Of a stretch of DNA of 64,000 bases, positions 1,530-59,321 are shown in pieces. Origin of the DNA: a virus (lineage: Duplodnaviria > Heunggongvirae > Uroviricota > Caudoviricetes). Below the pieces are notes generated by a model. That model had not been told where the DNA came from. It did not search any database and saw only the letters and a program-made list of their open reading frames with translations. Positions within the stretch are counted from its first letter, which is position 1. Every line of letters begins with the position of its first letter. Location of the stretch: IMG/VR virus record IMGVR_UViG_2778261505_000002, one strand, 5' to 3'. The translations under genes and the position numbers were made by a program.

Positions 1530-1544
1530 AAAACAATTTGTTTT
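1530..1544. promoter_or_regulatory. dyad AAAACAATTTGTTTT (operator-like, early family)
   Basis: Perfect inverted repeat; one of at least 12 dispersed copies. Confidence 0.5.
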
Positions 1545-1580
1545 CTACCTTTTGTTGATTGAGATAATAAGCCACATAAG

Positions 1581-1595
1581 AAAACAACTTGTTTT
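1581..1595. promoter_or_regulatory. dyad AAAACAACTTGTTTT (operator-like, early family)
   Basis: Inverted repeat 13 bp upstream of ATG at 1608. Confidence 0.5.
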
Positions 1596-1607
1596 GGAGT
1601 AGTTGAA

Positions 1608-1907
1608 ATGTTGAACATTACCCAAGCCTACCAGGTGGCATTGATCAGTTCATCTCATACATCAGAGGAAGATGCTCGCCGATTCATGATCGCAAGCAAT
1701 GAGCTGGATTGGGTTTCACAAATTGATGGCGGTTGTATTGTTCACGCCGGGTTACAGGATGATGTCTGGAAAGACGACTTGCGTCGATATGGTATATCCG
1801 AAGGCGCGATTGCTAACATTCAGAAAGTACTTGATGTAGGCTTTGACTCTGTACATTTTGATTGTGGAGCACCAGTCGTTGAAGGGCTTGAGTGCTGGAA
1901 CTGGTAA
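1608..1907 (+). CDS. hypothetical protein (99 aa)
   Basis: ORF preceded by dyad operator and GGAG-like RBS; no recognisable motif. Confidence 0.5.
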   Translation: MLNITQAYQVALISSSHTSEEDARRFMIASNELDWVSQIDGGCIVHAGLQDDVWKDDLRRYGISEGAIANIQKVLDVGFDSVHFDCGAPVVEGLECWNW

Positions 1908-1952
1908 CAGATATTAAAGCATTGGTAGTTTGTTTTTAGGATTATCAAAGAA

Positions 1953-2687
1953 ATGAAAAAGTTGAAAAGTTTAGAAATCCCTGGGACTGGTTATAAATTC
2001 TTTATGGACAACGCGGAGTGTGCGCCTAACGCGTTGGAAAAAATACAAAGTCTTATCAACAGCCTTACTGAAGAAGCGAAAGAACTGAAGAGCGAGGCGA
2101 CAAAGGACAATACAGCTAAAATCCAATGCTTAAATCTCGTTTCTTATTGTTTATATCAAGTGTCCAAAACACTGATTAAAGGCAATATCTATTACGACGA
2201 TGAAGACACCTCGACACCTGAAGAAAAAGATAGCGATGAAGAACTCTATGAAGATATCTCTACCAGTGCGGGTCACGCTGCCTTCGATGCTATGGGTGAA
2301 TCGTCAGGCATCAGATCGTTTGTTGAACAGAACAATTCGACAATAATGATTGAGTACTGTGAACAAACAAGCTCCAAGGCCATACATGTTCTTCACGATG
2401 TTGCTGCAGGGGTTCGCTGTGAGGCTGAAGCGGTCAGAAAAGATGTATTTGGTGCAGACAGTAATACCGTGAAAGCGTTCATCAACAGTGCTCTGCTAAA
2501 TTCTTACTCAAACCTTATCGTCAATGCGGCACTATGCGCAAATTCAGGTGAAGAACACATTGTCATAACTGAAACCAAACATGAGCATCAACAGTCACCA
2601 ACCATAGAAGAGGTAACTGCATTGGCTATCAAACAGGCGAGTGAAATTAGTGATGAAATTCTCTCTCTGCTAAACAAAACTATGTAA
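1953..2687 (+). CDS. hypothetical acidic protein (244 aa)
   Basis: ORF with D/E-rich stretches; no recognisable motif. Confidence 0.5.
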   Translation: MKKLKSLEIPGTGYKFFMDNAECAPNALEKIQSLINSLTEEAKELKSEATKDNTAKIQCLNLVSYCLYQVSKTLIKGNIYYDDEDTSTPEEKDSDEELYEDISTSAGHAAFDAMGESSGIRSFVEQNNSTIMIEYCEQTSSKAIHVLHDVAAGVRCEAEAVRKDVFGADSNTVKAFINSALLNSYSNLIVNAALCANSGEEHIVITETKHEHQQSPTIEEVTALAIKQASEISDEILSLLNKTM

Positions 2688-2811
2688 AACATTGATAATG
2701 GCGGTCACAATTTGATTCTTTTCTATAAGAATCCGTTGATCGCCACTACTCCCCTTCCATACCTGCAATCATACCCTTAAATATCAATAGGTTATGGTTG
2801 TTTATACAAAT

Positions 2812-3640
2812 AAGAAAACAACTAAATAACAGATCAACGAAACGTCAACGCTTTCACCCGATTTGGTCTAAAAAATTGACGTTTTCACACATCACTTCTT
2901 ATACCCGTAACTCTACGCAGCAGACAGCGCCACAGCGTCCAATTTTCACCACAGACGACCCAACACACTACCAACAAAAACATACGCTCAAAATCGCTCC
3001 CGTTGCGTTACACAACCATATAAACAACTTATTTTCAGTCATAACAAAACAACTAAATAACACACATGCCATTCCCAAAAACAACCAACCTCTTTATGGC
3101 AGGCTACCGAAAAGACCCACCTCTTCTCCCCAGGCTACCGGACAACCAACCTAACTTTCACAGGCAATCCGAAAACATTCATACGCGCGATACCCACGAC
3201 ACGCCATTCCCCAAACAGCGAAGAAACACCAGAATCACTGAAACCCCAACGAAGCCTGTAACCGCAAGGATTCTCTCAATCCCAAAAGACACGAAACAGA
3301 ACAATCACGGGAAACGCCATTACCCAATACACGAACAACTACAAAAGCCTTTCACACACTCCAGACAAACAACTCAAACACAATAACGAAAGCAATCGCC
3401 CACCTGCCATTACTCCATACACGGAGAAGAACAATCACCAAAACGACGAGAACACCCCATAGAAGAACCACCGCAAAACGAACGAAACCACATACACCGA
3501 CAGAGAAAACAACACACCCAATTCACCAACAGAAATAGTCGCCGTATAGAACATTCTGGAAGGAGTGAGCATTAACGCCTATAGAGAGGTTGAGACAGAT
3601 AAAACACAACATGTATAGCGAAGAAGCCAGGTATGTATAA
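2812..3640 (+). ncRNA. candidate non-coding transcript: C+A-rich, G-poor tract
   Basis: About 830 bp with strong strand skew (A and C dominate, few G), no credible ORF on either strand, dyad-like half-site at 5' end and hairpin terminator at 3' end. Confidence 0.3.
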
Positions 3641-3649
3641 GTGGGGAGG

Positions 3650-3676
3650 GAAGGAGGGGTGTCGCCTCCTTTTTCG
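3650..3676 (+). terminator. rho-independent terminator
   Basis: AGGAGG-GGTGTCG-CCTCCT hairpin followed by TTTTT. Confidence 0.65.
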
Positions 3677-3737
3677 TATTTATTCAACTCCTGATTTTAT
3701 CCCCCCGTAACACCCCTACGGTCAGCCTTCGGTCCAT

Positions 3738-3875
3738 ACAGGGAAAAGGCTGCATCCCGCTACAGAAACGGCTGGGTTGCCTTCGGGGAACGGCTGGAGG
3801 TTTTCAGGGAAACGGTCGAGTTGCCTGTGTGGATTTCGGGAAAAGGCTCGATGCCGGGTCAGGAACGGTGGCGTA
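3738..3875. repeat. iteron array, six direct repeats of core GGGAAACGGCTG at about 22 bp spacing
   Basis: Copies at 3741, 3764, 3785, 3808, 3838, 3861 with minor variation. Confidence 0.6.
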
Positions 3876-4203
3876 CCGGTATAGCGAGAGGGAGAGTTGC
3901 GGCTACCCACCTGTAATGTGCGGGAAGAAGAGAGGCGCTCACGTAGGCGGACTTGCTTACCGCTGGATTCCCTCTGAATGCCCAGCTACAGCGTAATTGT
4001 GCCAGACAGCCAACGGGTCACAATCGATTTCAGTAGGTTTTTGGGGAGAGGATTACTCTGCCACCAGCCACTTTCGGCCACTAAATCAGAATAATGTAAA
4101 AAGTGTACTCGGTACTGAACCTGAAAACTCACTGCCAAAACCACATTCACCGGAATAAAATCCTTTTTCGCCTGTGCGTTATTGCGATAATAACACCATC
4201 AAG

Positions 4204-4217
4204 AAAACATGTTGTTT
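4204..4217. promoter_or_regulatory. dyad-like AAAACATGTTGTTT (early family, imperfect)
   Basis: Family member upstream of ATG 4230. Confidence 0.4.
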
Positions 4218-4229
4218 AAGGATTGCTTT

Positions 4230-4559: not shown

Positions 4560-4686
4560 CCCCAACCAAAGCCAGCATTGCTGGCTTAATTTCTCTATAG
4601 CCGCAGGGAAGAACCTGCATATCGCTCATGCACCTGATCAATATGCTTTGTAGCCGTTTTCTTACTGGTATTATTTACGCCATTGA

Positions 4687-4701
4687 GAAAACAAGTTGTT
4701 T
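4687..4701. promoter_or_regulatory. dyad GAAAACAAGTTGTTT (early family)
   Basis: Inverted repeat upstream of ATG 4713. Confidence 0.45.
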
Positions 4702-4712
4702 ACGGAGTTGTA

Positions 4713-5583: not shown

Positions 5584-5590
5584 AAGCCCG

Positions 5591-5605
5591 ATAACAATTT
5601 GTTTT
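5591..5605. promoter_or_regulatory. dyad ATAACAATTTGTTTT (early family)
   Basis: Inverted repeat upstream of the 5622/5664 gene. Confidence 0.45.
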
Positions 5606-5663
5606 CTGCCTTATCTGATTTGTGAAAATGATTTCACTGAAGCAAGTTAATAAGGAAACCATC

Positions 5664-6184: not shown

Positions 6185-6353
6185 TTATTAAGGCCATCAG
6201 CATTGGTGGCCTTAAATGACCATCCTGTTTCCCGCAGGCTAAAAACACCAACCTCTTACCTCCAGGCAACCGATAAACCCACCTGTTCCCGTCCGGCTAC
6301 CGCAACTTTCCACTTTGACGCCTTATTCGTACAACGATAATTAACACCAACAA

Positions 6354-6369
6354 GAAAACAATTTGTTAT
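6354..6369. promoter_or_regulatory. dyad GAAAACAATTTGTTAT (early family)
   Basis: Upstream of ATG 6389. Confidence 0.45.
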
Positions 6370-6388
6370 TTACGATAAGGAATTAATC

Positions 6389-9237: not shown

Positions 9238-9762
9238 TCAAAAAGGCAAAATTCGTTCAACCCAATCGAACAAAACAACTATTTTTCTACCGTTCTCGAC
9301 ACGTAGTGTAACCTGACAAGCATCTGCACCTGCTGACACCCCCTCAATTTCACGGCCATCCGCCATGTACACCCTTATAGATTTGTTTGCTTTGTAGGCT
9401 TGGTTGCAAATTGCAAAAAAATCGCGGCGTGATGGCCGATTATCGACATAATCAGGGTGAACTGTTAGTCGACCTTTGAAATCGTGAGCGATACTGTCAA
9501 CCACACCTGATTCAATTGTACTAATGCGTTCAAGTGGGAGCCTTATACGATTTTCTTTGTCAAAAGGGGCTGGGCAAAGGTCAACTTTGTTACGAGATGG
9601 CATGAGGCCATAAACGTACATGCAAAACGCCTGGCCATCTTCGAGAGTGACCCTTACAGGAATTTGTTCTCTGCGCCAGAACATCAGTAGTTTTTCAACG
9701 TTAGTGTAATCTCGCGGCCAGAGTTCAGCTTGGATACCGTAGGTAATATCTTTGGTTGTCAT
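9238..9762 (-). CDS. hypothetical protein (about 175 aa)
   Basis: Track ORF 9238-9840 trimmed to the ATG just downstream of the lipoprotein stop. Confidence 0.45.
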   Translation of the reverse strand: MTTKDITYGIQAELWPRDYTNVEKLLMFWRREQIPVRVTLEDGQAFCMYVYGLMPSRNKVDLCPAPFDKENRIRLPLERISTIESGVVDSIAHDFKGRLTVHPDYVDNRPSRRDFFAICNQAYKANKSIRVYMADGREIEGVSAGADACQVTLRVENGRKIVVLFDWVERILPF

Positions 9763-9766
9763 GTCA

Positions 9767-10257: not shown

Positions 10258-10536
10258 TTATTTTAATCTGCTTAATAGCGTTTCGAGATCTTCCTTTGTC
10301 ATATTAGAGTTCTCATAGATACGCATGATTTTCTCACGAGTCTTAGCGGAAGCCCCGACAGAAGATATAACCTTGTCAAAGTCGGCCATTGTCAATTGTT
10401 CCAGAATGGTATTTATGACTTCAGCCTTAGACATTTTGATATTTTTTTCTTTTAGTTTCACTTGAAACTTTCCAAGTTTGTCATTGGCCTTATCAGACAA
10501 TGCTACCTGACAGTAAGTTGTTTTCTTTTCACTCAT
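10258..10536 (-). CDS. small DNA-binding protein, ribbon-helix-helix-like (92 aa)
   Basis: beta-strand/helix pattern FQVKLKE...SKAEVINTILEQL compatible with an RHH fold. Confidence 0.4.
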   Translation of the reverse strand: MSEKKTTYCQVALSDKANDKLGKFQVKLKEKNIKMSKAEVINTILEQLTMADFDKVISSVGASAKTREKIMRIYENSNMTKEDLETLLSRLK

Positions 10537-10538
10537 AA

Positions 10539-12098
10539 CTAATCTCGTTTCAGAACTCCAAAATCGAATGCTCCATCAATAGGCAATACACCTTCTGCAA
10601 AGCCAGGTGTGGTGTCGATGATGTGTTTTCGCTCATAAGAGTGAGACAACAGGTATTTGTTGCTAATGTCAATGAAATCAGTGATAAAACACACGTTTGC
10701 CTGATTTTTTTTGGCTCGTAAGCCACGACCGACACGCTGTCTCATTTCAACTTCTGCTTTCCCACCACCAGCAAGAATGACCGCACCAACGCTTGGCACA
10801 TCAACACCAACATCCAGAATAGTCGAGCCTATTAAAACATCTATTTCACCAGACGCTAAACTATTCAGCTTTGCTTGCCTTGTCGTCTGGTTAGATTCCC
10901 CATAGATGAAATCAACTTTAAGACCTGACTCCTTCATCATCTCCATCAGGATTTGCCCGTGGCGTTTAAGACGAACCAGAGTCATGCAGTTGAGTGAATG
11001 TTGCTTATAAAGCAATGCCTCGCGCACTATGGCCTCGTTACGTCCCAAATTATACACGATCCCCAACTGATAAGCCTTTTGGTAGGCGGTGCTCATACCA
11101 ACTCTAAAATTGAGGTGTTTGTTGGCAAGTTCGGCCTTGATTCTGGCCTCGTCTGGCTTGTAGGCAACTTTATGATAAAGGAAGTACGGCTTTGCCAGAA
11201 TGCCTCGATCAATCAGGTACTTTTCTGTGACTTTAATTTCAATTCGCCCGGCCACCGCCATCAGGCGCATGTTGGCTTCCGTCGAATCCTTCATGAACGG
11301 CGTGGCTGTAAGCGCCAGACGATAGTCTGCGTTCACACATAATCTGGCAATGTCATAGAAATTAGAGCCTGAAGACTCATGCGCTTCTTCCAGAATAAGC
11401 AGAGACACACTTGAAAGGAAGCGTTTCACCAACTCCCGACGTTTGAGGTGGTAGCTCTTTTTATCTGGTGTTGCATCGCGTGGTGGTTCTTCAAGGAAAC
11501 TTGCCAGAGTTTGAACTGTAGCGACGTTGATATGTCGTGATACCTGGAACTCACCCGAGCCAATGACTCCAACCTTTTGGCCCTTTAACCACGGTTCGCC
11601 ATTTTCGGCGCGGTAGTCGATGGATCTCTGGAAGTTTTCGGCCATTTGAAACATCAGAACGGAGCGGGTTGTTAAAAATAATGTCATTCGACCGATACGT
11701 GCAGCTGCTTTGCAGGCAACGTTAGATTTCCCGCCACCAGTAGCGATCTGCGCAATCATCATTCCCTCTCGAACCAGTGTTTCCACAGTCTGATCCTGAT
11801 ACGCATAATCAGGATTGTATGGGAATGGGTTAACCGCAGGATTTGGTTTACCAAGCGCCGGGGCTTTGTCTTTGCGGATATGAACACATTTGATGCCCGC
11901 CTTGTTCAAGTTCGCCGCTACAGGCTTGGCAAAGCCAGCAGGGAACGAGTTTTTACTCCAGTTGAACATCGTGCTTGTGCCCTTCCAGTCGCCAGTCTCG
12001 ACTTCGTAGCTCAACATTTGCTGCACCAGTTGCTTTACCTTGTCATCTGCGCCAGAAATAAGCGCATTTACTGCGTTAGATACAATCCGAACAGTCAT
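10539..12098 (-). CDS. superfamily 2 helicase (DEAD/DEAH-like)
   Basis: Motif I ATGGGKS, motif II LEEAHE, motif III TATP, motif VI QRVGRGLR. Confidence 0.8.
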   Translation of the reverse strand: MTVRIVSNAVNALISGADDKVKQLVQQMLSYEVETGDWKGTSTMFNWSKNSFPAGFAKPVAANLNKAGIKCVHIRKDKAPALGKPNPAVNPFPYNPDYAYQDQTVETLVREGMMIAQIATGGGKSNVACKAAARIGRMTLFLTTRSVLMFQMAENFQRSIDYRAENGEPWLKGQKVGVIGSGEFQVSRHINVATVQTLASFLEEPPRDATPDKKSYHLKRRELVKRFLSSVSLLILEEAHESSGSNFYDIARLCVNADYRLALTATPFMKDSTEANMRLMAVAGRIEIKVTEKYLIDRGILAKPYFLYHKVAYKPDEARIKAELANKHLNFRVGMSTAYQKAYQLGIVYNLGRNEAIVREALLYKQHSLNCMTLVRLKRHGQILMEMMKESGLKVDFIYGESNQTTRQAKLNSLASGEIDVLIGSTILDVGVDVPSVGAVILAGGGKAEVEMRQRVGRGLRAKKNQANVCFITDFIDISNKYLLSHSYERKHIIDTTPGFAEGVLPIDGAFDFGVLKRD

Positions 12099-12162
12099 AA
12101 ACCTCTTTCCTTAGTGCCTTTTGTATGTTATTTGGCTATTATAATAAGTAAGTGATTACTTA

Positions 12163-12861
12163 GTGGATTGTAGCAATAAAATGGATGTAAAAATCACGAT
12201 TTTGCAGGTTGATGTTGCCAACCTTCGCCCGAATACCTGGAACACCAATTCGGTTGGTGCGCAGAATTTTGAAAAACTGAAAGGTTCTATCGAAAAATTG
12301 GGCTTTTTTAAGCCAATTTTGGCTCGTGAACTTGAAGATGGATTTTTTGAAATCCTCGGCGGCGAACATCGCTGGCGTGCTGCTATTGAGCAAGGAATTT
12401 CAACGGTTCCGGTGCTTTCTGTGGGCAAAATTAGCGATGTCGTAGCTAAACAGATGTCACTGGTGGACAACGAGCGATACGGTGAAGACGACCAAATCGC
12501 ATTGCAACGCTTCATTGAAGAAATTCAGTCAGAACTTGACTATCAACTGTCTGAAATCGCTCCGTATGACGACGAAATCTCGATGGTTTTAGCAAAAGAG
12601 GCGGCAATCGACCTTGAAGCACTGGAGGCGTTGTCTCGTGGTAGTGATGAGCCTGTCGATACCGACAAACGAGAGAAAACCGAACGTGTGGGTGCGGAAC
12701 ATCAGACCATGCGCTTCAAAGTAACTTTCGATGCGTCAGATCGTGTTGCAGAAACCATAAAAAACATCATCAAAGAGCAGGCTATTAACACCGGTAATGA
12801 AATGGAGAACGCTGGTGAGGCTCTGGTGTGGCTGGTCGACTACTACAAGGAGCGTATGTAA
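12163..12861 (+). CDS. ParB N-terminal-domain (ParB/Srx-fold) protein
   Basis: GGEHRWRAA resembles the ParB arginine-rich box; start could be 12181. Confidence 0.6.
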   Translation: MDCSNKMDVKITILQVDVANLRPNTWNTNSVGAQNFEKLKGSIEKLGFFKPILARELEDGFFEILGGEHRWRAAIEQGISTVPVLSVGKISDVVAKQMSLVDNERYGEDDQIALQRFIEEIQSELDYQLSEIAPYDDEISMVLAKEAAIDLEALEALSRGSDEPVDTDKREKTERVGAEHQTMRFKVTFDASDRVAETIKNIIKEQAINTGNEMENAGEALVWLVDYYKERM

Positions 12862-13529
12862 TGACCAAAAAGTTTGAAATCGTATATCGCGACCCGGCAG
12901 ATCTTATTCCCTATGAGATGAATGCCAAAAAGCATGATGAACAGCAGATCAGAGATCTGGCCGCAGCCATTAAAAAGCGCGGATTTGACCAGCCAATTAC
13001 GGTCGATAAGAACGACGTAATTATTACTGGCCACGGCCGCCGTGAGGCTGCAATTTTTGCTGGACTTGAGCGCGTACCGGTTATTGTTCGTGATGATCTG
13101 AGTGATGACGAGGTACGTGCAAAGCGCCTTGAAGATAACCGACTTGCCAGCATTGATTACGATGCAATTAAGCTACAGAAAGAGCTTGAGTCGCTTGTTC
13201 TGGACGATATCGAGGTTTTCGGCTTCGAAGAGCGTGAGTTGAATGTTCTCGTTGGCAGTATGACAGAAGAAATGGACACCGACTCGCTAGTTATCGATCT
13301 TGGCGAAGAAACTAAACGACAGAAGGATGAACACACCGAGATCAGTCGTGAAGTTGCAGCGGAAGAAGTACGTGTTGTCGACGTATTGGGCTTTAAAACG
13401 CTCCCTGCTGGCTCTGCCATTGTTGTTGGTGATTTGCTTGCCCACATGGAAGAAATGACGGGAGAAAGCGGGGTAGACGCATTTGTGGCATATGCGGAGA
13501 AGATCTCTTCCGGGGAGATGGCTGCATGA
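12861..13529 (+). CDS. second ParB N-terminal-domain protein
   Basis: GHGRREAA motif; ATG overlaps the upstream stop (TAATG). Confidence 0.6.
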   Translation: MTKKFEIVYRDPADLIPYEMNAKKHDEQQIRDLAAAIKKRGFDQPITVDKNDVIITGHGRREAAIFAGLERVPVIVRDDLSDDEVRAKRLEDNRLASIDYDAIKLQKELESLVLDDIEVFGFEERELNVLVGSMTEEMDTDSLVIDLGEETKRQKDEHTEISREVAAEEVRVVDVLGFKTLPAGSAIVVGDLLAHMEEMTGESGVDAFVAYAEKISSGEMAA

Positions 13530-15087: not shown

Positions 15088-15354
15088 ATGACGTTAACCG
15101 ATAAACAAAAGGACATCATCAAAACGCTCAATCTCGGTTATGAGCGAGGTCATCTACTTGACCTGGACGAATTGCTTGAAGTTTTGCCGTACAAGACAAC
15201 CAAGCAAAGTATCCAGTTCTCAATTCGCGCTCTGATAAAAAAGGGGCTGGTGGAGAAAGGGCATACGCGCCAACGCAGTGACAATCGCTATCACCGCCGA
15301 ACTCTTGGGTTAACTACTTTAGGTCGAGCCAAAGCGAAGTTACTGGTGATGTAA
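15088..15354 (+). CDS. small winged-helix DNA-binding protein (88 aa)
   Basis: HTH-like segment TTKQSIQFSIRALIKKGLV; basic C-terminus. Confidence 0.4.
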   Translation: MTLTDKQKDIIKTLNLGYERGHLLDLDELLEVLPYKTTKQSIQFSIRALIKKGLVEKGHTRQRSDNRYHRRTLGLTTLGRAKAKLLVM

Positions 15355-15468: not shown

Positions 15469-15510
15469 AGAAAACAAGTTGGTTAGCAGATGCAGTAAAC
15501 AAGTTGTTTT
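15469..15510. promoter_or_regulatory. two tandem early-family dyads (AGAAAACAAGTTGGTT, GTAAACAAGTTGTTTT)
   Basis: Upstream of terminase small subunit gene. Confidence 0.45.
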
Positions 15511-15549
15511 AGAGCGCATGGACGCGCTCTGTGTGTTTTAGAGGGATCT

Positions 15550-45289: not shown

Positions 45290-45559
45290 CTACTCCATGC
45301 TTTTCAGACGATCAGCAGCTCGTTTCAGCTTGTCGTTCGGTGCCGGAGGATTGCTTATAGCGTCCATAACCAGATTCCAGGATTCTTCATTCAGAACTAG
45401 TCTACGGTGTTGCTCTATAACTTTCACGGCACGTTCAGATGCACTGCTAACCATAAACTGAGTAATGCTCTGGTTAGACATTGCGGCAGCTTCCTCGATG
45501 ATGCTTTTATCGTCATCGGTTAATCTCAAATCGATGCGCTGCTTTTTTAGTGCTGACAT
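45290..45559 (-). CDS. RHH antitoxin (DUF1778/TacA-type)
   Basis: About 90 aa; ATG 45559 with GGAGG RBS; 8 bp from toxin start. Confidence 0.7.
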   Translation of the reverse strand: MSALKKQRIDLRLTDDDKSIIEEAAAMSNQSITQFMVSSASERAVKVIEQHRRLVLNEESWNLVMDAISNPPAPNDKLKRAADRLKSME

Positions 45560-45826
45560 GTATTCCTCCTGATGGCCGTGATGTAGGAAGGCCATCAATC
45601 TCCTCTGTTCAAACTGAGTTTTCGACTCAAAAATTACTTTAAAAGGCTATAGCCCATTACGTGTGCATTATCAAATTGTGTACGGCATATCACCGTACTT
45701 GTAATATAGAGGTCATTGTTACTTTTTTCAACAGACAAATACAAGCTATGTTTGCCAATTGTTAATCACAACCTACCATTTAACCTTTACACCGCAGCCG
45801 TAGGCATTTAGGCTATATCACATATA

Positions 45827-45842
45827 AGAAAACAAGTTGTTT
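45827..45842. promoter_or_regulatory. dyad GAAAACAAGTTGTTTC (early family)
   Basis: Upstream of parA-like gene. Confidence 0.45.
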
Positions 45843-45877
45843 CAGACGATAATTATATACGCAAAGGGAACTCTCCA

Positions 45878-46546
45878 ATGACCAAGATCTTTGTGGTTGG
45901 CGGCACAAAGGGCGGGCCTGGCAAATCCACCGTTGCCCAGCAAATTGCCGTTTGCCTGAAAGTCAAAAAGAAGAAGAAGGTTTATATTACCGATATAGAT
46001 ATTCAGCGCACGACAACGAGCTGGTGTGAAGACCGTCGACAGAACGAAGACCTTGAGCTGATTCCTTTTGCATACGTTCAGGATGACATCATTAAGCACC
46101 TAAAATCGCTTCAGGGTAGAGCTGAGTTTGTAGTGGTAGATGCTGGTGGCTTCGACTCCGAAATTCAGCGACAAGCGATGCTGATGGCTGACGTTATCAT
46201 TATCCCGCTGCGTCCTAAGCGTCGTGATTTGAAATCTTTACGTGACATCGATCCTATTATCGACAATGTTCGCAATGTAAACGATAAAGTGAAGGTCCGC
46301 GCGGTCATGAACCAGTGCCCGGCTTTGCCATCACAAGTGTCTCGCATTCTGGCGGCTAAAGAGATTGTTGAGACGTTTGGAATCGAGTCTGCGCCAGTCA
46401 ATCTATATAACCGCAACGTCTATGATGATGCGGAAGAGTCTGGTCGTTCTATCTTTGAAATGACCGGTAGCGAGCGCGACAAAAAGGCGGAAGCCGAGTT
46501 TGAAGAATTTGTAGATTATCTGTTGAGTCTGGAGGAAGAAGAATAA
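45878..46546 (+). CDS. ParA-family partition ATPase
   Basis: Deviant Walker A GGTKGGPGKST; 222 aa. Confidence 0.8.
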   Translation: MTKIFVVGGTKGGPGKSTVAQQIAVCLKVKKKKKVYITDIDIQRTTTSWCEDRRQNEDLELIPFAYVQDDIIKHLKSLQGRAEFVVVDAGGFDSEIQRQAMLMADVIIIPLRPKRRDLKSLRDIDPIIDNVRNVNDKVKVRAVMNQCPALPSQVSRILAAKEIVETFGIESAPVNLYNRNVYDDAEESGRSIFEMTGSERDKKAEAEFEEFVDYLLSLEEEE

Positions 46547-46905
46547 TGTCCATGAAAATGGGTGACCTAGCAAAGCGCAAAGAGCCTGATGCACCGGCTA
46601 AGAACACAACTCCTTTGCGCCAACCAGTCAGACCACAGGGACGCCCGACTCGTGGCAAAGAGAAAATTAAAAGCCGCACAATGTCACTGGAGGACGAATA
46701 CTTCGAACTGCTGGAGATGATGAAGTTCATCCCTCGCTTCGAGAAGTTCACTCGTTCTGACGTGATTCGAGCAGCCATTTTCCATCTGGCAGAGAAGTCA
46801 CCGCAGGAAATCGAGGACATCGTGAAATTGAATGAGGCGATCACCGCTGCCGATGTCACGATGCGTACCGATGAAATCAAACGAGAGTTGATGAAGAAAG
46901 GTTAA
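46546..46905 (+). CDS. small partition-associated DNA-binding protein (ParG/RHH-like, putative)
   Basis: 119 aa, basic N-terminus, translationally coupled to ParA. Confidence 0.5.
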   Translation: MSMKMGDLAKRKEPDAPAKNTTPLRQPVRPQGRPTRGKEKIKSRTMSLEDEYFELLEMMKFIPRFEKFTRSDVIRAAIFHLAEKSPQEIEDIVKLNEAITAADVTMRTDEIKRELMKKG

Positions 46906-46910
46906 AAATC

Positions 46911-46941
46911 ATGCATTGGCGCGTACATTGCGCCAATGCAT
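46911..46941. terminator. bidirectional hairpin between convergent genes
   Basis: ATGCATTGGCGC-GTACATT-GCGCCAATGCAT perfect 12 bp stem. Confidence 0.6.
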
Positions 46942-46957
46942 AACTACAGTGTCAGCT

Positions 46958-47725
46958 TTATGCCGCGCTAACACTATGTTCAGTCCTAACCACCCCAACC
47001 TTCACAAAAGGGCTACCGTAGCTTGGTGGCTTCTTGATTAATTTGCCTACATACAGTTTTCTAATATGCTCATCGGCTATTCTGCCAACAAATTCATAAC
47101 GTTTTGTGTCGGGGCCAAGAGCTATATCCCTTGTAAAGTACTGCTGAGAACCGGCTTTGACCCAGCATTCAATCTGATAAACTTCCATTATCAGCCCACC
47201 ATATGTAGCGTAGGCATATTTGAGATTCTCGTCTCTTGGAACCTTTGCCCATACGCCACGCGTAGCTTCATATAATGCCAGAGCGGACATTCCTGACTTG
47301 TAGGTGCTGTTTAGCAGGAAGGCAAGACCGGCGTGCTCAGGAGCAATTTCAGTTTCCTCTTGCAGCACTAAGTGATGGTAGGCGTCTAGTGATATTCTGC
47401 CCATCATGGAACCACTTCCTCGTACCTTATTCGTAAGCTCTCCGACCCCCATAAGGTCGATGCATGTCGCCTCAACAAGTTTGGCTGTGGTTTCATCCAT
47501 ACCATGACGAAGTATATCTATGCCTAATTTTTTATTAGCCAAAAGTTCTTTGATCCGCATGGATTTGGGAGAGTCATCGGGATACTTGATGTGATCGAGA
47601 CAACGAGTCGATTTGCCTTTTCCTATGTAAAACGGTCTTTTCATCTTGTCTTCTGTATCATAGAGACAGTAAACATAGTATTTAGCCTTATCCAATGATC
47701 TCGCGTATACCGATAAATCGTCCAT
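46958..47725 (-). CDS. GIY-YIG nuclease-domain protein (255 aa)
   Basis: N-terminal YVYCLYD...PFYIGKGK...R...H matches the GIY-YIG pattern; C-terminal region unassigned. Confidence 0.6.
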   Translation of the reverse strand: MDDLSVYARSLDKAKYYVYCLYDTEDKMKRPFYIGKGKSTRCLDHIKYPDDSPKSMRIKELLANKKLGIDILRHGMDETTAKLVEATCIDLMGVGELTNKVRGSGSMMGRISLDAYHHLVLQEETEIAPEHAGLAFLLNSTYKSGMSALALYEATRGVWAKVPRDENLKYAYATYGGLIMEVYQIECWVKAGSQQYFTRDIALGPDTKRYEFVGRIADEHIRKLYVGKLIKKPPSYGSPFVKVGVVRTEHSVSAA

Positions 47726-47836: not shown

Positions 47837-47891
47837 CCTGCTTCCGTATATATAAATAATAAGTAACTTATTAAATATATACGGAAGCAGG
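47837..47891. repeat. 55 bp palindromic element, copy 2
   Basis: Near-identical to 15379-15433. Confidence 0.7.
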
Positions 47892-47998
47892 TCTTTTAAA
47901 AGACACCACCAGAACAACTCCCTTCCGTTTCCACTTCCAAAAACTGCCACCAGTCGCTATCATCCGCTCATTGTGATAAGTAAGTAACTACCTACCAG

Positions 47999-48756: not shown

Positions 48757-48772
48757 AGAAAACAATTTGTTT
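48757..48772. promoter_or_regulatory. dyad AGAAAACAATTTGTTT (early family)
   Basis: Upstream of helicase gene. Confidence 0.45.
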
Positions 48773-48791
48773 AAAAAACAAAGGAAAGCAC

Positions 48792-55699: not shown

Positions 55700-55774
55700 G
55701 ATGGTGTAGCTCAGCGGTAGAGCAGTTGGCTGTTAACCAACTGGTCGGTGGTTCGAATCCACCCACCATCGCCA
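55700..55774 (+). tRNA. tRNA-Asn (anticodon GTT)
   Basis: Cloverleaf folded by hand: 7 bp acceptor, D arm, anticodon loop CTGTTAA, T loop TTCGAAT, 3' CCA encoded. Confidence 0.85.
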
Positions 55775-55779
55775 ATTTA

Positions 55780-55866
55780 GGGGAGTTAGTCCGTAGAGGT
55801 AGCGGTGTAGACTGTAAATCTACTGTCATTGCGACTCGGGTGGTTCGACTCCATCACTCCCCACCA
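55780..55866 (+). tRNA. tRNA-Tyr (anticodon GTA), long variable arm
   Basis: Acceptor GGGGAGT/ACTCCCC, anticodon loop CTGTAAA, T loop TTCGACT, CCA encoded. Confidence 0.85.
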
Positions 55867-55870
55867 AATT

Positions 55871-55946
55871 GCCGGTTTAGCTCAGTTGGTAGAGCGCCTG
55901 CCTTGTAAGCAGGATGTCAGCGGTTCGAGTCCGTTAACCGGCACCA
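55871..55946 (+). tRNA. tRNA-Thr (anticodon TGT)
   Basis: Acceptor GCCGGTT/AACCGGC, anticodon loop CTTGTAA, T loop TTCGAGT, CCA encoded. Confidence 0.8.
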
Positions 55947-56250: not shown

Positions 56251-56252
56251 GA

Positions 56253-56471: not shown

Positions 56472-56822
56472 ATGACCAGCAAAGAGAACACACCACTAAA
56501 AGTCACCCCTGAACACATTGAACAACTCATTCAAAGTGAACATTATTTCACTGCATATGATGCCAGCCACGGGGATAACTTCATCTCTGTTTACAATTCA
56601 AAAACAGATATCGACAAAGGTCATGAGTCGTTAAAACTCTTAACGTTCTGCGTTATGGTTCTCAAAAATGGATATACCGTAACGGGAAAATCTGCGTGCG
56701 TAAGACCAGAAATCTTCAACTTTGATGTTGGTCGCGAGTACGCTCGAAAAGATGCTATCGATCAAATCTGGCCCCTGGAAGGCTATCTCCTGAAGCAAAA
56801 GTGGCATGAGGCAAAGCAATGA
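56472..56822 (+). CDS. hypothetical protein (116 aa)
   Basis: ORF translationally coupled to the glutaredoxin gene. Confidence 0.5.
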   Translation: MTSKENTPLKVTPEHIEQLIQSEHYFTAYDASHGDNFISVYNSKTDIDKGHESLKLLTFCVMVLKNGYTVTGKSACVRPEIFNFDVGREYARKDAIDQIWPLEGYLLKQKWHEAKQ

Positions 56823-57064
56823 CGATCACTATCTACGGACGAGATAACTGCTCATACTGCAAACGTGCGGTCGAGCTGGCGAAGCAACTAAAGGGACATG
56901 GCTACGGTGATTATGAGTACATCGACATCACCACTGCCGGTATCGACAAGGAAAAACTAAGTGAAATTGTTGGTAAACCGGTAGAGACTATCCCCCAAGT
57001 GCTGATCGATGGCCAACCGATTGGCGGATACACTGAACTGGCTGCATACGTCAGCACCCTCTGA
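56819..57064 (+). CDS. glutaredoxin-like protein (NrdH/Grx family)
   Basis: CSYC active site and C-terminal IPQVLIDGQPIGGY signature. Confidence 0.8.
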   Translation: MTITIYGRDNCSYCKRAVELAKQLKGHGYGDYEYIDITTAGIDKEKLSEIVGKPVETIPQVLIDGQPIGGYTELAAYVSTL

Positions 57065-57274
57065 TTTTAACGGCTCACAGGAGCCGTTTTTATTCCCACC
57101 AAACTCACTCCCGTTTCCCTTAAAATTCAAAAAACAACGTCAAAATGATTCCATACCTACTATGTATGGAATCATTACTGAAAATGAGTTACTTTTACTC
57201 TTGATCCTATAAGAATCTATGCCTAATATACTGTTTACTTATACAGTGAATCGGCGTAACTCGGTGATTGTCAT

Positions 57275-58378
57275 ATGAAAAATAGCTTTGACAGAGCACG
57301 CGCTGCGGAGAACACCTCAAAAGAGGCGATTGAGTATCTCGAAAGAGCATCTCAAATGCAGGCCGTTATGATCTCGCAGGTTAGCAATGATATGAGATTC
57401 TCGGACGCATTCATGTTATTTACTCGCTTATCTCTGCTGATAACCAGACGTCGGCCAGAGATCGCTGTTCATTGTATTTTGATACATGTTTTGCCGCACA
57501 TTGCCGATGTAAAAGTAAGTGACATTAATAGGTTCATGGTGAACCAACTGGTCAACCCACTAATACTGGATGGCAAAATTGTTATGGGCCGCCGCGTTTT
57601 CTCTCTGATGAAGCAGTTCCTTAGCTGGTGCGCCTTCCAGGGGATGATAGACGTGTCACCGTTAAACGATATGTCACTTAACAAAGTTGCCGGTGGCGCA
57701 AAGCCCACACCTCGCGAGCGGAAGCTGACCGACGCAGAGGTATGGGTGTTCTGGAATATATGGGACTACTTCAATGTGTGCGCTGGTACAAAATGGGCGG
57801 CCAGGCTGTGTCTTGTATCCGCAAGACGACCTGACGAAGTACTGCGGGCTAAAAAAAGTGAGTTCAATCTTAAGCGTGGGGTTTGGAATCAAGGCAAGAG
57901 GAACAAATCTGCCCGTGAGCATTCGCTGCCTTTAAGCACATTAATGCGCACATGTATTGAAGAGTTGTTCGAATACGGTAAAGGCAGCCAGTGGCTCGTG
58001 CCTTCGAATAAAAAAATCGGGAAAGACCTTCCTATGTCTAAAGTGGCAATAGCCCAGGCATTACGTCGTATTCTGGAACGACCAGAACTGATGGAGCTTG
58101 AGCCATTTACACCCCGAGACTTGCGCCGTACTGCGCGTAGTTACTTCCCAGCATTAGGCATAAGCCAGGAGGTATCACGTAAAATCATGAACCACAGTCT
58201 TGAGGGGATAGATCGAGTCTACGACCGGCACGATTATATGGACGAGATGCGAGACGCCTTAGAAAGTTTCTCGACGTACATCGCATCAATCGTAGAGCAA
58301 CCGGATTTAGACGAAATTGACCACAAATTCAAGGGAGATCGTCTATCAACAGAGCTTATTCGTGTAAATTTTTCATAG
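57275..58378 (+). CDS. tyrosine recombinase / phage integrase
   Basis: C-terminal catalytic pattern R...NHSLEG...RVYDRHDY (Arg, His-x-x-Arg, Tyr). Confidence 0.8.
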   Translation: MKNSFDRARAAENTSKEAIEYLERASQMQAVMISQVSNDMRFSDAFMLFTRLSLLITRRRPEIAVHCILIHVLPHIADVKVSDINRFMVNQLVNPLILDGKIVMGRRVFSLMKQFLSWCAFQGMIDVSPLNDMSLNKVAGGAKPTPRERKLTDAEVWVFWNIWDYFNVCAGTKWAARLCLVSARRPDEVLRAKKSEFNLKRGVWNQGKRNKSAREHSLPLSTLMRTCIEELFEYGKGSQWLVPSNKKIGKDLPMSKVAIAQALRRILERPELMELEPFTPRDLRRTARSYFPALGISQEVSRKIMNHSLEGIDRVYDRHDYMDEMRDALESFSTYIASIVEQPDLDEIDHKFKGDRLSTELIRVNFS

Positions 58379-58759
58379 AGACTTTATGGCCTCAACAACC
58401 TTTTGTGATGCGCCTTTCTCTTTACCGAATCGCTCGTTATATGCAGCAAGAACCTGTTTTTCGTCCTCGTTAAGAGGAGCGGTGCCTTCTTTGTATAAAA
58501 ATGCTGCGAGTTCAGGTTGGCGTTCTTCCAGCACCATCATCATAAGACGACTTGGCTCAATACCCAGCGCCAGCGCCAACGGACGAACCTTATCGATAGG
58601 CAAAGGAATTTTGCCACTTTTAATTAAAGAAAGGTTGTTGGCATTTTTATAACCAATAAGTCTGGCTATTTGGGCCTGACTCATAGGTGAGGATTCAATC
58701 AGCCCTGCGATAAAAGCAGCATAGCGACTTTCTATAAATTCAATCTTGTTGTCAGACAT
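58373..58759 (-). CDS. HTH (XRE-like) DNA-binding protein, candidate repressor
   Basis: HTH segment SQAQIARLIGYKNANNLSLIKSGK; convergent with and overlapping the integrase 3' end. Confidence 0.55.
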   Translation of the reverse strand: MSDNKIEFIESRYAAFIAGLIESSPMSQAQIARLIGYKNANNLSLIKSGKIPLPIDKVRPLALALGIEPSRLMMMVLEERQPELAAFLYKEGTAPLNEDEKQVLAAYNERFGKEKGASQKVVEAIKSL

Positions 58760-59010
58760 TGTTACAACCTTTGCGCGTTCAATTCTCACTGGTAAGTGCT
58801 TACCGATATTACATCAAAGGTTAGGGTTGTAAAGCTATTATCATTTTTTTCGATAGGCACTTAAAAGACCGGTTAAAGGCCATTGCACGGAGAAAAATTA
58901 GCCCAAAACAGGTAAGAAAATTAACTTGTATATGATATGAATGTATTCAGTATTGATATAAATTTTAGTAGTATTCCTTACCATAGTATAAGTTAGAATG
59001 GATTGATTGA

Positions 59011-59223
59011 ATGAACACCACTATTTCCAGCCTAATCGCTCTTGAGATCGGACACGTACAGAAATTAGCTGATGAGTGTGTAGCTGACATCCTCACCGAT
59101 CTACCGAATGAGCAGATTCAGGTTGGTGTGAATGACACAACTGGCTTTATATTCGAATTTAACAACAAACGCTTCACGCTTCTCAATACCGGCTCCGGGT
59201 CTTTAGCCGTCAGAATCTGTTAA
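59011..59223 (+). CDS. hypothetical protein (70 aa)
   Basis: ORF. Confidence 0.35.
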   Translation: MNTTISSLIALEIGHVQKLADECVADILTDLPNEQIQVGVNDTTGFIFEFNNKRFTLLNTGSGSLAVRIC

Positions 59224-59321
59224 CCCCTCTTCTCCCTGCGCGAATGGCTTAGTTCCCTGTTCGCGCAGTGCTACATTAAACACACTAGTAAATAATTTGT
59301 TTTCATAACAAAGGATTAGCC

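What the first reader, a model, noticed from the sequence alone, without database searches (positions are those of the whole stretch)
1530..59304. Dispersed dyad AAAACAA-N-TTGTTTT in front of at least twelve genes (putative regulon operator)
Copies read directly at 1530, 1581, 2812 (half), 4204, 4687, 5591, 6354, 15469, 15495, 45827, 48757 and 59291, almost always 15-50 bp upstream of a start codon (early small genes, terminase small subunit, parA, DnaB-like helicase, VWA gene). This implies one DNA-binding protein co-regulating early, partition, replication and packaging entry points. Candidate regulators encoded here are the XRE-like HTH protein (58373-58759), the wHTH protein (15088-15354) and the RHH proteins. 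The motif does not match host operator consensuses I can recall (LexA, Fur, PurR, Cra).
Basis: partly seen in the sequence, partly recalled or inferred. Interest (0 to 1): 0.55.

Follow-up and report, generated by a model that had tools for sequence, protein, structure and literature searches.

The report
Shared operator on phage-plasmid lytic promoters
A 13-17 bp palindrome (AAACAA-N-TTGTTT) sits on the promoters of about twenty early, replication, partition and packaging operons of an SSU5-type E. coli phage-plasmid. It is most likely the binding site of one element-encoded repressor that keeps these genes silent while the phage lives as a plasmid.

Summary
The core AAACAA-N-TTGTTT occurs 6 times exactly (0.03 expected) and 12 times with at most 1 mismatch (0.5 expected) in the window, always intergenic and upstream of + strand genes. 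The window is a pSLy3/SSU5-type phage-plasmid. The complete element has 18 copies, and SSU5, two Klebsiella relatives and pMT1 keep them at orthologous promoters while the flanks diverge. It is the commonest palindrome in four of six genomes counted.

The dyad sits at fixed positions on sigma70-like, often TGn-extended promoters. It lies either at about +5 to +21, or over the -35 just after a terminator. Mismatches are never compensated and the central base is free, so it is a duplex-DNA protein site, not a hairpin.

Published RNA-seq of a lysogen shows the dyad-headed genes at background, except parAB at about 5-fold.

The best reading is an operator of a dispersed repressor regulon, as with P1 C1, RK2 KorA/KorB or pSM19035 omega. 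The binder is unproven. The small ParA partner (46546-46905) fits best. The XRE protein carries a different palindrome in front of its own gene, and the winged-helix protein is silent in lysogens. I found no description of the motif in the literature.

The parts
1529..1545 (+). Dyad TAAAACAATTTGTTTTC, class T. It follows a terminator-like hairpin, and its right arm lies over the -35 position of the promoter whose TGn-GATAAT -10 box is at 1563-1568.
   Evidence: The 51-bp spacing to the next dyad is conserved in SSU5 and K. oxytoca.
1580..1596 (+). Dyad GAAAACAACTTGTTTTG, class P. It lies 11 nt after the -10 box GATAAT (1563-1568) and 12 nt before the ATG at 1608.
2812..2827 (+). Left half-site only (AAGAAAACAACTAAAT). 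A second copy of AAAACAACTAAATAAC lies at about 3046-3061.
3020..3036 (+). Dyad ATAAACAACTTATTTTC, class T orientation, 1 mismatch. It lies in a gene-poor stretch.
   Evidence: Orthologous copies are in SSU5 (90740) and pJN2-26 (25869).
4203..4219 (+). Dyad GAAAACATGTTGTTTAA, class P. It lies 11 nt after TGn-GATAAT (4186-4191) and before the ATG at 4230.
4687..4703 (+). Dyad GAAAACAAGTTGTTTAC, class P. It lies 12 nt after TGn-TATTAT (4669-4674) and before the ATG at 4713.
5590..5606 (+). Dyad GATAACAATTTGTTTTC, class T. It follows a terminator hairpin, and a TGn-GAAAAT -10 box starts 17 nt downstream (5624).
6354..6370 (+). Dyad GAAAACAATTTGTTATT, class P. It follows TTGACG-N-GATAAT (6336-6341) and precedes the ATG at 6389.
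15470..15486 (+). First dyad of the terminase-operon leader (GAAAACAAGTTGGTTAG).
   Evidence: The pair with 25-bp spacing is conserved in SSU5 and pMT1. The K. oxytoca relative also has a 25-bp pair, at a different promoter.
15495..15511 (+). Second dyad of the terminase-operon leader (GTAAACAAGTTGTTTTA).
15510..15531 (+). Terminator-like G+C-rich hairpin with a T run. It lies between the dyads and the small-terminase start codon (15550).
   Evidence: It is conserved in SSU5 and pJN2-26.
45828..45844 (+). Dyad GAAAACAAGTTGTTTCA, 34 nt before the parA start (45878). The 60 bp upstream are identical in E. coli, SSU5 and Klebsiella.
45878..46905 (+). The parA gene (45878-46546, small Walker-type ATPase) and its 119-aa partner (46546-46905). 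The partner is the leading candidate for the dyad-binding protein.
   Evidence: ParA/MipZ/CbiA hits. (an invariant basic arm, the strand IKSRTMS-EDE and the helix FTRSDVIRAAI). (expressed in the lysogen).
48758..48774 (+). Dyad GAAAACAATTTGTTTAA, 18 nt before the DnaB-like helicase start (48792).
59288..59304 (+). Dyad GTAAATAATTTGTTTTC, before the VWA/CobT-like gene (59322). It follows a terminator hairpin (59236-59268).
15088..15354 (+). 88-aa winged-helix protein, with a weak match to the LexA DNA-binding domain. It is the second candidate binder.
   Evidence: E = 0.07. (89/84/78% conserved). (at background in the lysogen).
58373..58759 (-). XRE-like HTH protein, called the putative repressor of phage Cyrano. 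It is the third candidate binder.

Best explanation
The dyad is the operator of a dispersed repressor regulon in an SSU5/pSLy3-type phage-plasmid. Its full form is GAAAACAA-N-TTGTTTAA, and its core is the 13-bp palindrome AAACAA-N-TTGTTT.

About 18-20 short transcription units start from sigma70-type promoters that are often TGn-extended at the -10. These units cover small early genes, nrdB, an HD-domain gene, a TerB-like gene, a methylase, the DnaB helicase-primase-ligase operon, VWA/AAA genes, parAB and the terminase operon.

The operator is placed in one of two ways.
- Class P: 11 nt downstream of the -10, covering about +5 to +21.
- Class T: directly over the -35, 17 nt upstream of the -10 and right after the preceding terminator.
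Some promoters carry both, 51 bp apart.

A symmetric oligomer of one element-encoded DNA-binding protein occupies these sites and excludes or traps RNA polymerase. This keeps lytic functions off in the plasmid state. The par operon, which heads with the same site, settles at an autoregulated intermediate level.

What is shown: the site statistics, the positions, the conservation, the lack of hairpin covariation, and the silence of the downstream genes in a lysogen.

What is inferred: that the promoters are real, that the effect is repression, and who binds. My leading candidate, at about 35%, is the 119-aa ParA partner. It looks like a ribbon-helix-helix centromere-binding protein, is expressed in lysogens and sits behind a dyad.
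For: Statistics: there are 6 exact and 12 near-exact copies against 0.03 and 0.5 expected. The complete plasmid has 18 copies against fewer than 1 expected.

Conservation: SSU5 has 20 copies, pJN2-26 has 17, a K. oxytoca relative has 14 perfect copies and pMT1 has 6. They lie at orthologous promoters while the flanks diverge.

Specificity: multi-copy loci in IMG/VR are all SSU5-like.

Position:
- A -10-like hexamer ends 6-16 nt before the 17-mer in 27 of 47 class P sites, against 14% of random positions.
- In 16 of those 27 it ends exactly 11 nt before, and 17 of the 27 are TGn-extended.
- In 11 of 16 class T sites the -10 starts exactly 17 nt after the 17-mer.

Duplex-DNA site rather than hairpin:
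- The central base is uniform (C22, G19, A18, T16).
- Of 31 single-mismatch sites, none is compensated and 26 break pairing.
- Double sites keep 51-bp and 25-bp spacings in three lineages.

Expression: in lysogen RNA-seq of the 98%-identical phage Cyrano (PMC9928086, supplementary table), the first genes behind dyads read 5.7-25 against a background of 9.8. Examples are terS 7.1, VWA 7.8, nrdB 12.9 and dnaB 21. Only parA and its partner read higher, at 50 and 89.

For the ParA partner as binder:
- It is 93% and 91% identical in SSU5 and Klebsiella, more conserved than ParA.
- At 52% identity (K. oxytoca), the basic arm, the predicted strand IKSRTMS-EDE and the start of helix 2 (FTRSDVIRAAI) stay invariant.
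- No repeat array that could serve as a separate centromere was found around parAB.
- The 7-bp offset of the two hexamers matches how pairs of ribbon-helix-helix dimers sit on omega diheptads (my own knowledge of omega and CopG).
Against: No binding or transcription-start data exist.

Several important sites (terS, parA, dnaB) have only weak -10 matches such as TAATTA or TATATC. The simple sigma70 scan did not flag these promoters.

Silence in lysogens would also follow if an activator were missing.

The fold of the ParA partner is not established.
- It has no Pfam or PDB hit.
- The AlphaFold monomer has pLDDT 63, with helices but no strand.
- Foldseek and hhalign comparisons found nothing.

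A Moellerella relative keeps ParA, its partner, the winged-helix protein and the XRE protein with largely conserved DNA-reading segments. Yet it has no intact dyads. If the dyads were the only centromere, this would be unexpected.

pMT1 keeps dyads without the ParA partner, although it diverged recently.

If the partner repressed all sites, it is unclear how lytic growth escapes.
Confidence: 0.6

Rival explanations
1. The binder is the 88-aa winged-helix protein (15088-15354). It is made only during lytic growth from the operon just upstream of the terminase promoter. The dyad would then serve temporal control in the lytic cycle, such as shut-off of early promoters or a late switch, rather than lysogenic silencing.
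For: It is the most conserved small predicted DNA-binding protein across lineages, at 89/84/78/61% identity, with an unchanged recognition helix TTKQSIQFSIRALIKKGLV. It has a weak match to the LexA DNA-binding domain. Its gene abuts the double dyad of the terminase leader.
Against: It is at background in the lysogen (7.8 against 9.8), so it cannot explain the silence there. Its own operon promoter region (12099-12183) has no dyad. Conserved bases run right up to the centre of the palindrome, which is unusual for a helix-turn-helix dimer (inference). The recognition helix is unchanged in Moellerella, where the dyads are gone.
Confidence: 0.15
2. The XRE-like protein (58373-58759) is the lysogeny master repressor and binds the AAACAA dyads directly.
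For: It is expressed in lysogens (96), and the Cyrano authors call it the putative repressor. It is present in about 800 SSU5-like plasmids, including pMT1. SSU5 lacks it, is described as virulent (AnCo3 abstract) and keeps the dyads. That is what a repressor-less derivative would look like. Its recognition helix is largely conserved.
Against: Its own upstream region has no AAACAA dyad in any of four lineages. Instead it carries the conserved palindrome GGTAAGTnCTTAC, which belongs to a second dispersed family. The protein is only 57% and 47% identical in lineages where the dyad is unchanged. The int-XRE module sits next to a tRNA cluster and looks like a separable insert.
Confidence: 0.12
3. 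There is no dedicated binder. The dyad is part of a duplicated promoter cassette, an initial-transcribed or -35 element read by RNA polymerase itself or by a phage factor that modifies polymerase. Examples would be a loading site for an antiterminator or a promoter-proximal pause.
For: The whole promoter, not just the dyad, is similar between sites (GCCTTTT..., TGnGATAAT, TAACACCAACAA). The right arm coincides with the -35 position in class T sites. The transcription units are separated by many hairpins or terminators, and the terminase leader has a terminator right after the dyads. Antitermination is therefore probably needed somewhere.
Against: The dyad is far more conserved than the rest of the cassette (information profile). 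It is a true palindrome with a free central base, used in both orientations and at two different promoter positions. This fits a symmetric DNA-binding protein better than polymerase contacts.
Confidence: 0.08
4. A host transcription factor common to Enterobacterales binds the dyad, and the phage-plasmid exploits it.
For: The dyad is unchanged in elements of Escherichia, Salmonella, Klebsiella and Yersinia although most candidate proteins diverge. It is lost in Moellerella (Morganellaceae), a more distant host.
Against: I recall no E. coli operator consensus that matches; KdgR, DeoR, PurR, Cra, LacI, Zur and MntR all differ in sequence or spacing (memory only). Multi-copy occurrence in viral contigs is confined to SSU5-like elements. 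The host chromosome was not scanned.
Confidence: 0.04
5. The dyad works as RNA, as a 5'-UTR hairpin bound by an RNA-binding protein. Candidates would be the FljA homologue at 9241-9765 or a nut/boxB-like antitermination signal.
For: Class P copies would be transcribed at about +5 to +21. The element encodes a FljA-family protein with a weak Hfq-like match.
Against: A one-base centre cannot form a loop. None of 31 single mismatches is compensated, and 26 break pairing. The outer bases of the usual form GAAAAC...GTTTAA do not pair. Class T copies lie upstream of their promoters. There is no Rfam match. The FljA homologue reads low in the lysogen (18).
Confidence: 0.02

Closest known systems
Phage-plasmid P1 C1 repressor and its dispersed operators
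   Same: This is a plasmid prophage in which one repressor controls many transcription units scattered round the genome through a roughly 17-bp operator overlapping each promoter. The controlled units include a DnaB-like helicase operon (ban in P1). This comparison rests on my own knowledge of P1.
   Different: P1 operators are asymmetric, whereas this one is a palindrome. No C1 homologue was noticed among the proteins scanned. The packaging and partition operons also carry the site here.
pSM19035 (inc18) omega protein with its heptad operators that double as parS
   Same: A small ribbon-helix-helix partner of a Walker-type ParA (delta) represses several dispersed promoters, and the same sites serve as centromeres. 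Binding units are offset by 7 bp and can be inverted, as the two hexamers are here. This comparison rests on my own knowledge.
   Different: Omega sites are arrays of 7-10 heptads at three promoters. Here there are single dyads (two units) at about 20 promoters. The fold and binding of the 119-aa protein are unproven.
RK2/IncP KorB (and KorA) global regulon
   Same: A 13-bp palindromic operator (OB) is repeated about a dozen times on the replicon. It is bound by the partition protein, which thereby co-regulates replication, partition and transfer. This rests on my own knowledge; a 2026 preprint on KorB and TrbA appeared.
   Different: KorB is a large ParB-family CTPase clamp that can act at a distance. 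Here the sites are always on the promoter. The two ParB-N-domain proteins of the element (12184-13529) are silent in lysogens.
Linear phage-plasmid N15: four separate SopB centromere sites IR1-IR4
   Same: This is a phage-plasmid whose centromere is split into single inverted repeats at separate places in the genome rather than one array (PMC7205306).
   Different: N15 has 4 sites and a type Ia SopB. Here there are about 20 sites, a type Ib-like system, and all sites are promoter-associated.
Mycobacteriophage L5 gp71 'stoperators'
   Same: Tens of copies of one short repressor site are spread through the lytic operons of a temperate phage (my own knowledge).
   Different: Stoperators are asymmetric, orientation-dependent and act on elongation within operons. 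The AAACAA dyad is symmetric and lies on promoters. The second palindrome family noticed here (TAGGTAAGTACTTACCTA) resembles stoperators more in its distribution.

Membership tests
Repressor operator on a sigma70 promoter | The site overlaps the core promoter or initial transcribed region at a fixed distance from a -10 element. | tested here: met
   The -10-like hexamer ends exactly 11 nt before the 17-mer in 16 of 47 class P sites. Any such hexamer lies 6-16 nt before it in 27 of 47, against 14% of random positions. In class T the -10 starts 17 nt after the site in 11 of 16.
Repressor operator on a sigma70 promoter | Downstream genes are silent when the repressor is present. | tested here: inconclusive
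   Lysogen RNA-seq of Cyrano shows dyad-headed genes at background, except parAB. An absent activator would give the same picture.
Repressor operator on a sigma70 promoter | A specific protein binds the site. | not testable with these tools
   This needs a gel shift, a footprint or ChIP.
Dispersed single-regulator regulon of a plasmid prophage (P1 C1 type) | Many copies of one operator are spread round the replicon in front of separate operons. | tested here: met
   There are 18 copies in the 110-kb plasmid and 20 in SSU5.
Dispersed single-regulator regulon of a plasmid prophage (P1 C1 type) | An asymmetric C1-type operator and a C1-family repressor. | tested here: not met
   The site is a palindrome used in both orientations. 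No C1-like hit appeared among the proteins scanned with Pfam or PHROGs, but not all proteins were scanned.
Type Ib partition system with operators that double as centromere (omega/ParG type) | A small Walker ParA followed by a small centromere-binding protein with a disordered basic N-terminus. | tested here: met
   ParA is 222 aa with MipZ/CbiA/ParA hits. The partner is 119 aa, and residues 1-47 are modelled without secondary structure; pLDDT is below 50 only for residues 1-25.
Type Ib partition system with operators that double as centromere (omega/ParG type) | A ribbon-helix-helix fold in the partner. | tested here: inconclusive
   The pattern of a conserved strand-like IKSRTMS followed by two helices (48-60 and 70-84) fits.
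Type Ib partition system with operators that double as centromere (omega/ParG type) | The site lies in the promoter of the par operon (autoregulation). | tested here: met
   A dyad lies at 45828-45844, 34 nt before parA. It is conserved in four lineages.
Type Ib partition system with operators that double as centromere (omega/ParG type) | An array of several repeat units forming the centromere. | tested here: not met
   There is only one dyad at parA and no other repeat array in 45500-47100. The K. oxytoca relative has extra flanking half-sites.
RNA hairpin, 5'-UTR element or intrinsic terminator | Pairing is maintained by compensatory changes, and the loop is feasible. | tested here: not met
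   None of 31 mismatches is compensated, the centre is a single base, and there is no Rfam hit.

The most novel reading that the evidence does not exclude
The small ParA partner is both the centromere-binding protein and the global silencer of the lytic programme. The roughly 20 promoter-borne dyads would together form a dispersed centromere. Segregation, copy number and the lysis-lysogeny state of this clinically common phage-plasmid family would then be read through one protein, for example by titration of the repressor as the genome amplifies. The XRE protein would control a separate regulon through the second palindrome family.
Probability: 0.3. Interest if true: 0.75.

Novelty: new member of a known kind. 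Interest (0 to 1): 0.5.

Why it matters
SSU5/pSLy3/pKpn/pHCM2/pMT1-type phage-plasmids are widespread in clinical Enterobacteriaceae and carry resistance genes. A 2024 review lists no regulator for this group, and I found no paper that describes this motif.

The dyad gives a ready-made map of about 20 co-regulated transcription units. It also gives a defined 17-bp probe for finding the regulator and a simple handle for reporters or for forcing or blocking induction.

If the binder is the partition protein, the finding would add a phage example to the omega/KorB principle that partition proteins act as global regulators.

Tried and rejected
1. Literal pattern search. Only 2 exact hits were found, so I redefined the core as 6-N-6.

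2. The consensus sigma70 scan did not flag the dyad promoters, because their -35 boxes are weak. I replaced it with a distance-anchored -10 analysis.

3. A scan of IMG/VR for the 17-mer, looking for unrelated phages that share the operator and one protein. All multi-copy loci were SSU5-like and the single hits look like chance.

4. Homologue searches for the ParA partner and the winged-helix protein, looking for outgroups. Both families are confined to SSU5-like elements at this sensitivity.

5. Fold of the ParA partner.

6. Natural loss of the ParA partner. pMT1 lacks parA and its partner yet keeps 6 dyads, but its divergence is too recent to be decisive.

7. Co-variation test in a Moellerella relative. 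The dyads are gone, but all candidate proteins persist with similar DNA-reading segments, so the result is inconclusive. Half-site pairs there are not significantly enriched.

8. FljA homologue as an RNA-level binder. Rejected, because there is no covariation and its expression is low.

9. The 92-aa ribbon-helix-helix-like protein (10258-10536) as binder. It is expressed in lysogens, but its DNA-facing strand residues all change in K. oxytoca while the dyad does not.

10. Rfam returned only three tRNAs.

11. A 2026 preprint on phage-plasmid heteroresistance could not be opened. Term counts show it does not mention repressor, partition or palindrome.

Full report
**What the window is.** Megablast places the window in the SSU5 supergroup of phage-plasmids. 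It is 99.8% identical to E. coli plasmid p4_0.2 (NZ_CP023851.1, 110 kb), 98% to phage Cyrano of E. coli LF82, and 82% to Salmonella phage SSU5. Window position w corresponds to record position 79198 - w on the minus strand. The window holds these regions:
- the 3' part of a plasmid-borne metG gene;
- a block of small early genes (1.5-7 kb);
- a minus-strand cluster (7.5-12.1 kb);
- two ParB-N-domain genes and accessory genes;
- the terminase, head, tail and lysis genes (15.5-45 kb);
- a toxin-antitoxin pair, then parA and a 119-aa partner;
- a DnaB-primase-ligase block and three tRNAs;
- an integrase-XRE module and VWA/AAA genes.

**Checking the observation.** Reading the twelve coordinates shows eleven dyads and one half-site, as described.
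- The literal 7-N-7 pattern is exact only twice.
- The conserved core is AAACAA-N-TTGTTT: 6 exact copies against 0.03 expected, and 12 with at most one mismatch against 0.49 expected. At two mismatches the signal fades into noise, with 16 against 6.2 expected.
- Counting every 6-mer palindrome with gaps of 0-4, without prior knowledge, returns this dyad as the most frequent palindrome of the whole E. coli plasmid (8 perfect copies), SSU5 (11) and Klebsiella phage pJN2-26 (11). A K. oxytoca relative has 14.
- The complete plasmid has 18 copies with at most one mismatch, against fewer than one expected. The copies outside the window precede nrdB, a TerB/TciA-like gene, a DUF4942 methylase, an HD-domain operon and the SPFH operon.

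**Anatomy.** I aligned 55 sites from three genomes. The 17-mer is oriented, and it occurs in two settings.
- Class P is GAAAACAA-N-TTGTTTAA. It lies just downstream of a -10-like box and 8-25 nt upstream of a Shine-Dalgarno sequence and start codon.
- Class T is the reverse complement, TTAAACAA-N-TTGTTTTC. It directly follows a terminator-like hairpin and is followed by tACCTTTTcTTATtTG and a -10 box.

The distances are sharp.
- In class P, 27 of 47 sites have a -10-like hexamer ending 6-16 nt before the 17-mer, against 14% of random positions. In 16 of these it ends exactly 11 nt before, and 17 are TGn-extended.
- In class T, the -10 starts exactly 17 nt after the 17-mer in 11 of 16 sites, so the right arm occupies the -35 position.

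With a start about 7 nt after the -10 (established promoter geometry), class P dyads cover about +5 to +21 and class T dyads centre near -37. Both lie inside the RNA polymerase footprint. Where two dyads flank one promoter they are 51 bp apart, and the pair in the terminase leader is 25 bp apart. Both spacings recur in SSU5 and the K. oxytoca element. The terminase leader also has a G+C-rich hairpin with a T run between the dyads and the start codon.

**DNA site or hairpin?**
- Across 75 sites in four genomes the central base is uniform (C22, G19, A18, T16).
- Of 31 sites with one mismatch, none is compensated on the other arm and 26 break pairing.
- A one-base centre cannot loop, and the outer bases of the common form do not pair.
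- Rfam finds only tRNAs.

This pattern, with independently degenerate half-sites and a free centre, is what a symmetric protein bound to duplex DNA produces.

**Conservation.** In alignments of the regions upstream of dnaB, the VWA gene, terS and parA from four or five lineages, the dyad is the main conserved island besides the ribosome-binding site.
- The dyad is unchanged in the K. oxytoca element, where the proteins compared range from 31% to 91% identity, many of them at 30-70%.
- Y. pestis pMT1, a decayed relative, retains six copies at the surviving orthologous promoters.
- A Moellerella relative has none intact, only decayed halves in the same promoter architecture.
- A scan of IMG/VR for the 17-mer finds multi-copy loci only in SSU5-like contigs.

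**Expression.** The LF82 study (PMC9928086) provides normalised RNA-seq counts for every Cyrano gene in the lysogen, with a background median of 9.8. Cyrano carries the same dyads.

| First gene behind a dyad | Count |
|---|---|
| terS | 7.1 |
| VWA gene | 7.8 |
| CYRAN_58 | 5.7 |
| nrdB | 12.9 |
| TciA-like gene | 7.0 |
| CYRAN_87 | 7.1 |
| CYRAN_93 | 6.3 |
| CYRAN_101 | 7.5 |
| CYRAN_105 | 12.8 |
| CYRAN_106 | 12.2 |
| CYRAN_108 | 5.7 |
| CYRAN_111 | 25.5 |
| dnaB | 21.1 |
| parA | 50 |
| ParA partner | 89 |

So the dyad promoters are off in the plasmid state, and the par operon sits at an intermediate level, as an autoregulated operon would. Cyrano is induced by ciprofloxacin.

**Who binds?** Predicted DNA-binding proteins expressed in the lysogen are the XRE-like protein (96), a 92-aa ribbon-helix-helix-like protein co-transcribed with a UvsW-like helicase (114), and the ParA partner (89). 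The winged-helix protein (7.8), a 71-aa putative regulator (6.4), the two ParB-N proteins (5-9.5) and the FljA homologue (18) are not expressed.

- **XRE protein.** It is missing from SSU5, which keeps all dyads. This alone is not decisive, because SSU5 is described as virulent. However, the region in front of the XRE gene has no AAACAA dyad in four lineages. It carries the conserved GGTAAGTnCTTAC instead.
- **92-aa protein.** Its putative DNA-facing strand residues all change in K. oxytoca while the dyad does not.
- **ParA partner.** It is more conserved than ParA (93% and 91% against 91% and 83%). At 52% identity it keeps the arm PQGRPTRGK, the strand-like IKSRTMS-EDE and FTRSDVIRAAI invariant. 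Its operon is headed by a dyad, and no other repeat array that could be a centromere is found around parAB. The two hexamers are offset by 7 bp, with conservation running up to the centre. From my knowledge of omega and CopG, this suits two ribbon-helix-helix dimers better than a classical helix-turn-helix dimer.

Against the ParA partner:
- Its fold is not confirmed.
- The Moellerella element keeps it without dyads.
- pMT1 keeps dyads without it.

I therefore give the ParA partner about 35%, the winged-helix protein about 15% and the XRE protein about 12%. The remainder goes to an unrecognised or host protein, or to no dedicated binder.

**Comparison with known systems.** Functionally the arrangement is closest to the dispersed operator regulons of plasmid-borne elements.
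- P1 C1 controls many operators, including one at the helicase operon.
- RK2 KorA and KorB use 12-13-bp palindromes at about a dozen promoters, and KorB is the partition protein.
- pSM19035 omega is a ribbon-helix-helix ParA partner whose heptad operators are also the centromeres.
- N15 has four separate SopB sites (PMC7205306).

It is not a member of the C1 family, because the site is palindromic. Membership of the omega/ParG class is open: the operon position is met, the fold is inconclusive, and the repeat array is not met.

**Novelty and verdict.** A 2024 review of phage-plasmids names no regulator for the SSU5, pSLy3, pKpn or pMT1 groups, and full-text searches found no description of this motif. 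The finding is a real, strongly supported and apparently undescribed operator regulon of a familiar kind. Its regulator is still to be identified.

Noticed in passing
window 5093, 12149, 17436, 18943, 20866, 24441, 30939, 37856, 43234, 47977, 51411, 54933, 58791, 61449: There is a second dispersed palindrome family, about TAGGTAAGTACTTACCTA, with variants TAAGTA-NN-TACTTA. It gives 10 matches against 0.06 expected in the window and dozens in SSU5 and Klebsiella relatives. It lies in intergenic gaps, including inside the late structural operon, in the -35/spacer of some predicted promoters, and just upstream of the XRE gene in every lineage. It may be the XRE operator or a stoperator-like element. 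Arm spacing varies (0, 4 or 8) between copies and lineages.
   Followed up: partly
window 9241-9765 (-): The element encodes a full-length homologue of FljA, the repressor of phase-1 flagellin (Pfam PF03614, E = 1.6e-84; weak Hfq-like match). It is conserved in SSU5, Klebsiella and pMT1 relatives. It is probably a moron acting on host flagellin.
   Followed up: partly
window 13-1446 (+): This is the 3' part of a plasmid-borne methionyl-tRNA synthetase gene (metG). In the full plasmid it is next to apbC and a stand-alone S24 (UmuD-like) peptidase gene that is highly expressed in the lysogen.
   Followed up: no
window 15380-15440 and 47840-47900: Two copies of a roughly 60-bp palindromic element (GCCTGCTTC(T/C)GTATATATAAATAATAAGTAACTTATTAAATATATACGGAAGCAGG) look like strong bidirectional terminators. 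Copies also occur in SSU5 and pJN2-26.
   Followed up: no
window 15510-15531: A terminator-like hairpin lies between the double dyad and the small-terminase start codon and is conserved in relatives. This suggests that late-operon expression needs antitermination in addition to derepression.
   Followed up: partly
window 57275-59223: The module of integrase, XRE and a 70-aa divergent gene lies next to the tRNA cluster (55700-55943). It is absent from SSU5 but present in about 800 related plasmids, including Y. pestis pMT1. It looks like a separable immunity or integration cassette.
   Followed up: partly
window 2690-4200: This is a gene-poor 1.5-kb stretch with two copies of AAAACAACTAAATAAC (about 2815 and 3046), one dyad (3022) and a conserved upstream block (…CGCTCCCGTTGCGTTA…). 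It could hold a small RNA or an origin-like element.
   Followed up: no
L136-L138 (Moellerella wisconsensis plasmid pW18-2-b): This distant SSU5-like element keeps the promoter architecture and all candidate regulators. It has no intact AAACAA dyad, although the second palindrome family persists. Upstream of its parA there are two direct repeats, AAATAACAAGGC(A/G)AA.
   Followed up: partly
window 46958-47725 (-): A GIY-YIG (LEM-3-like) nuclease gene on the opposite strand replaces the gene that follows the par operon in phage Cyrano. This is a local cassette swap just downstream of parAB.
   Followed up: no
window 10258-12098 (-): A UvsW/DEAD-box helicase and a 92-aa ribbon-helix-helix-like protein form a minus-strand operon. 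It is expressed in the lysogen (46 and 114 against a background of 9.8), and its role in the plasmid state is unknown.
   Followed up: partly
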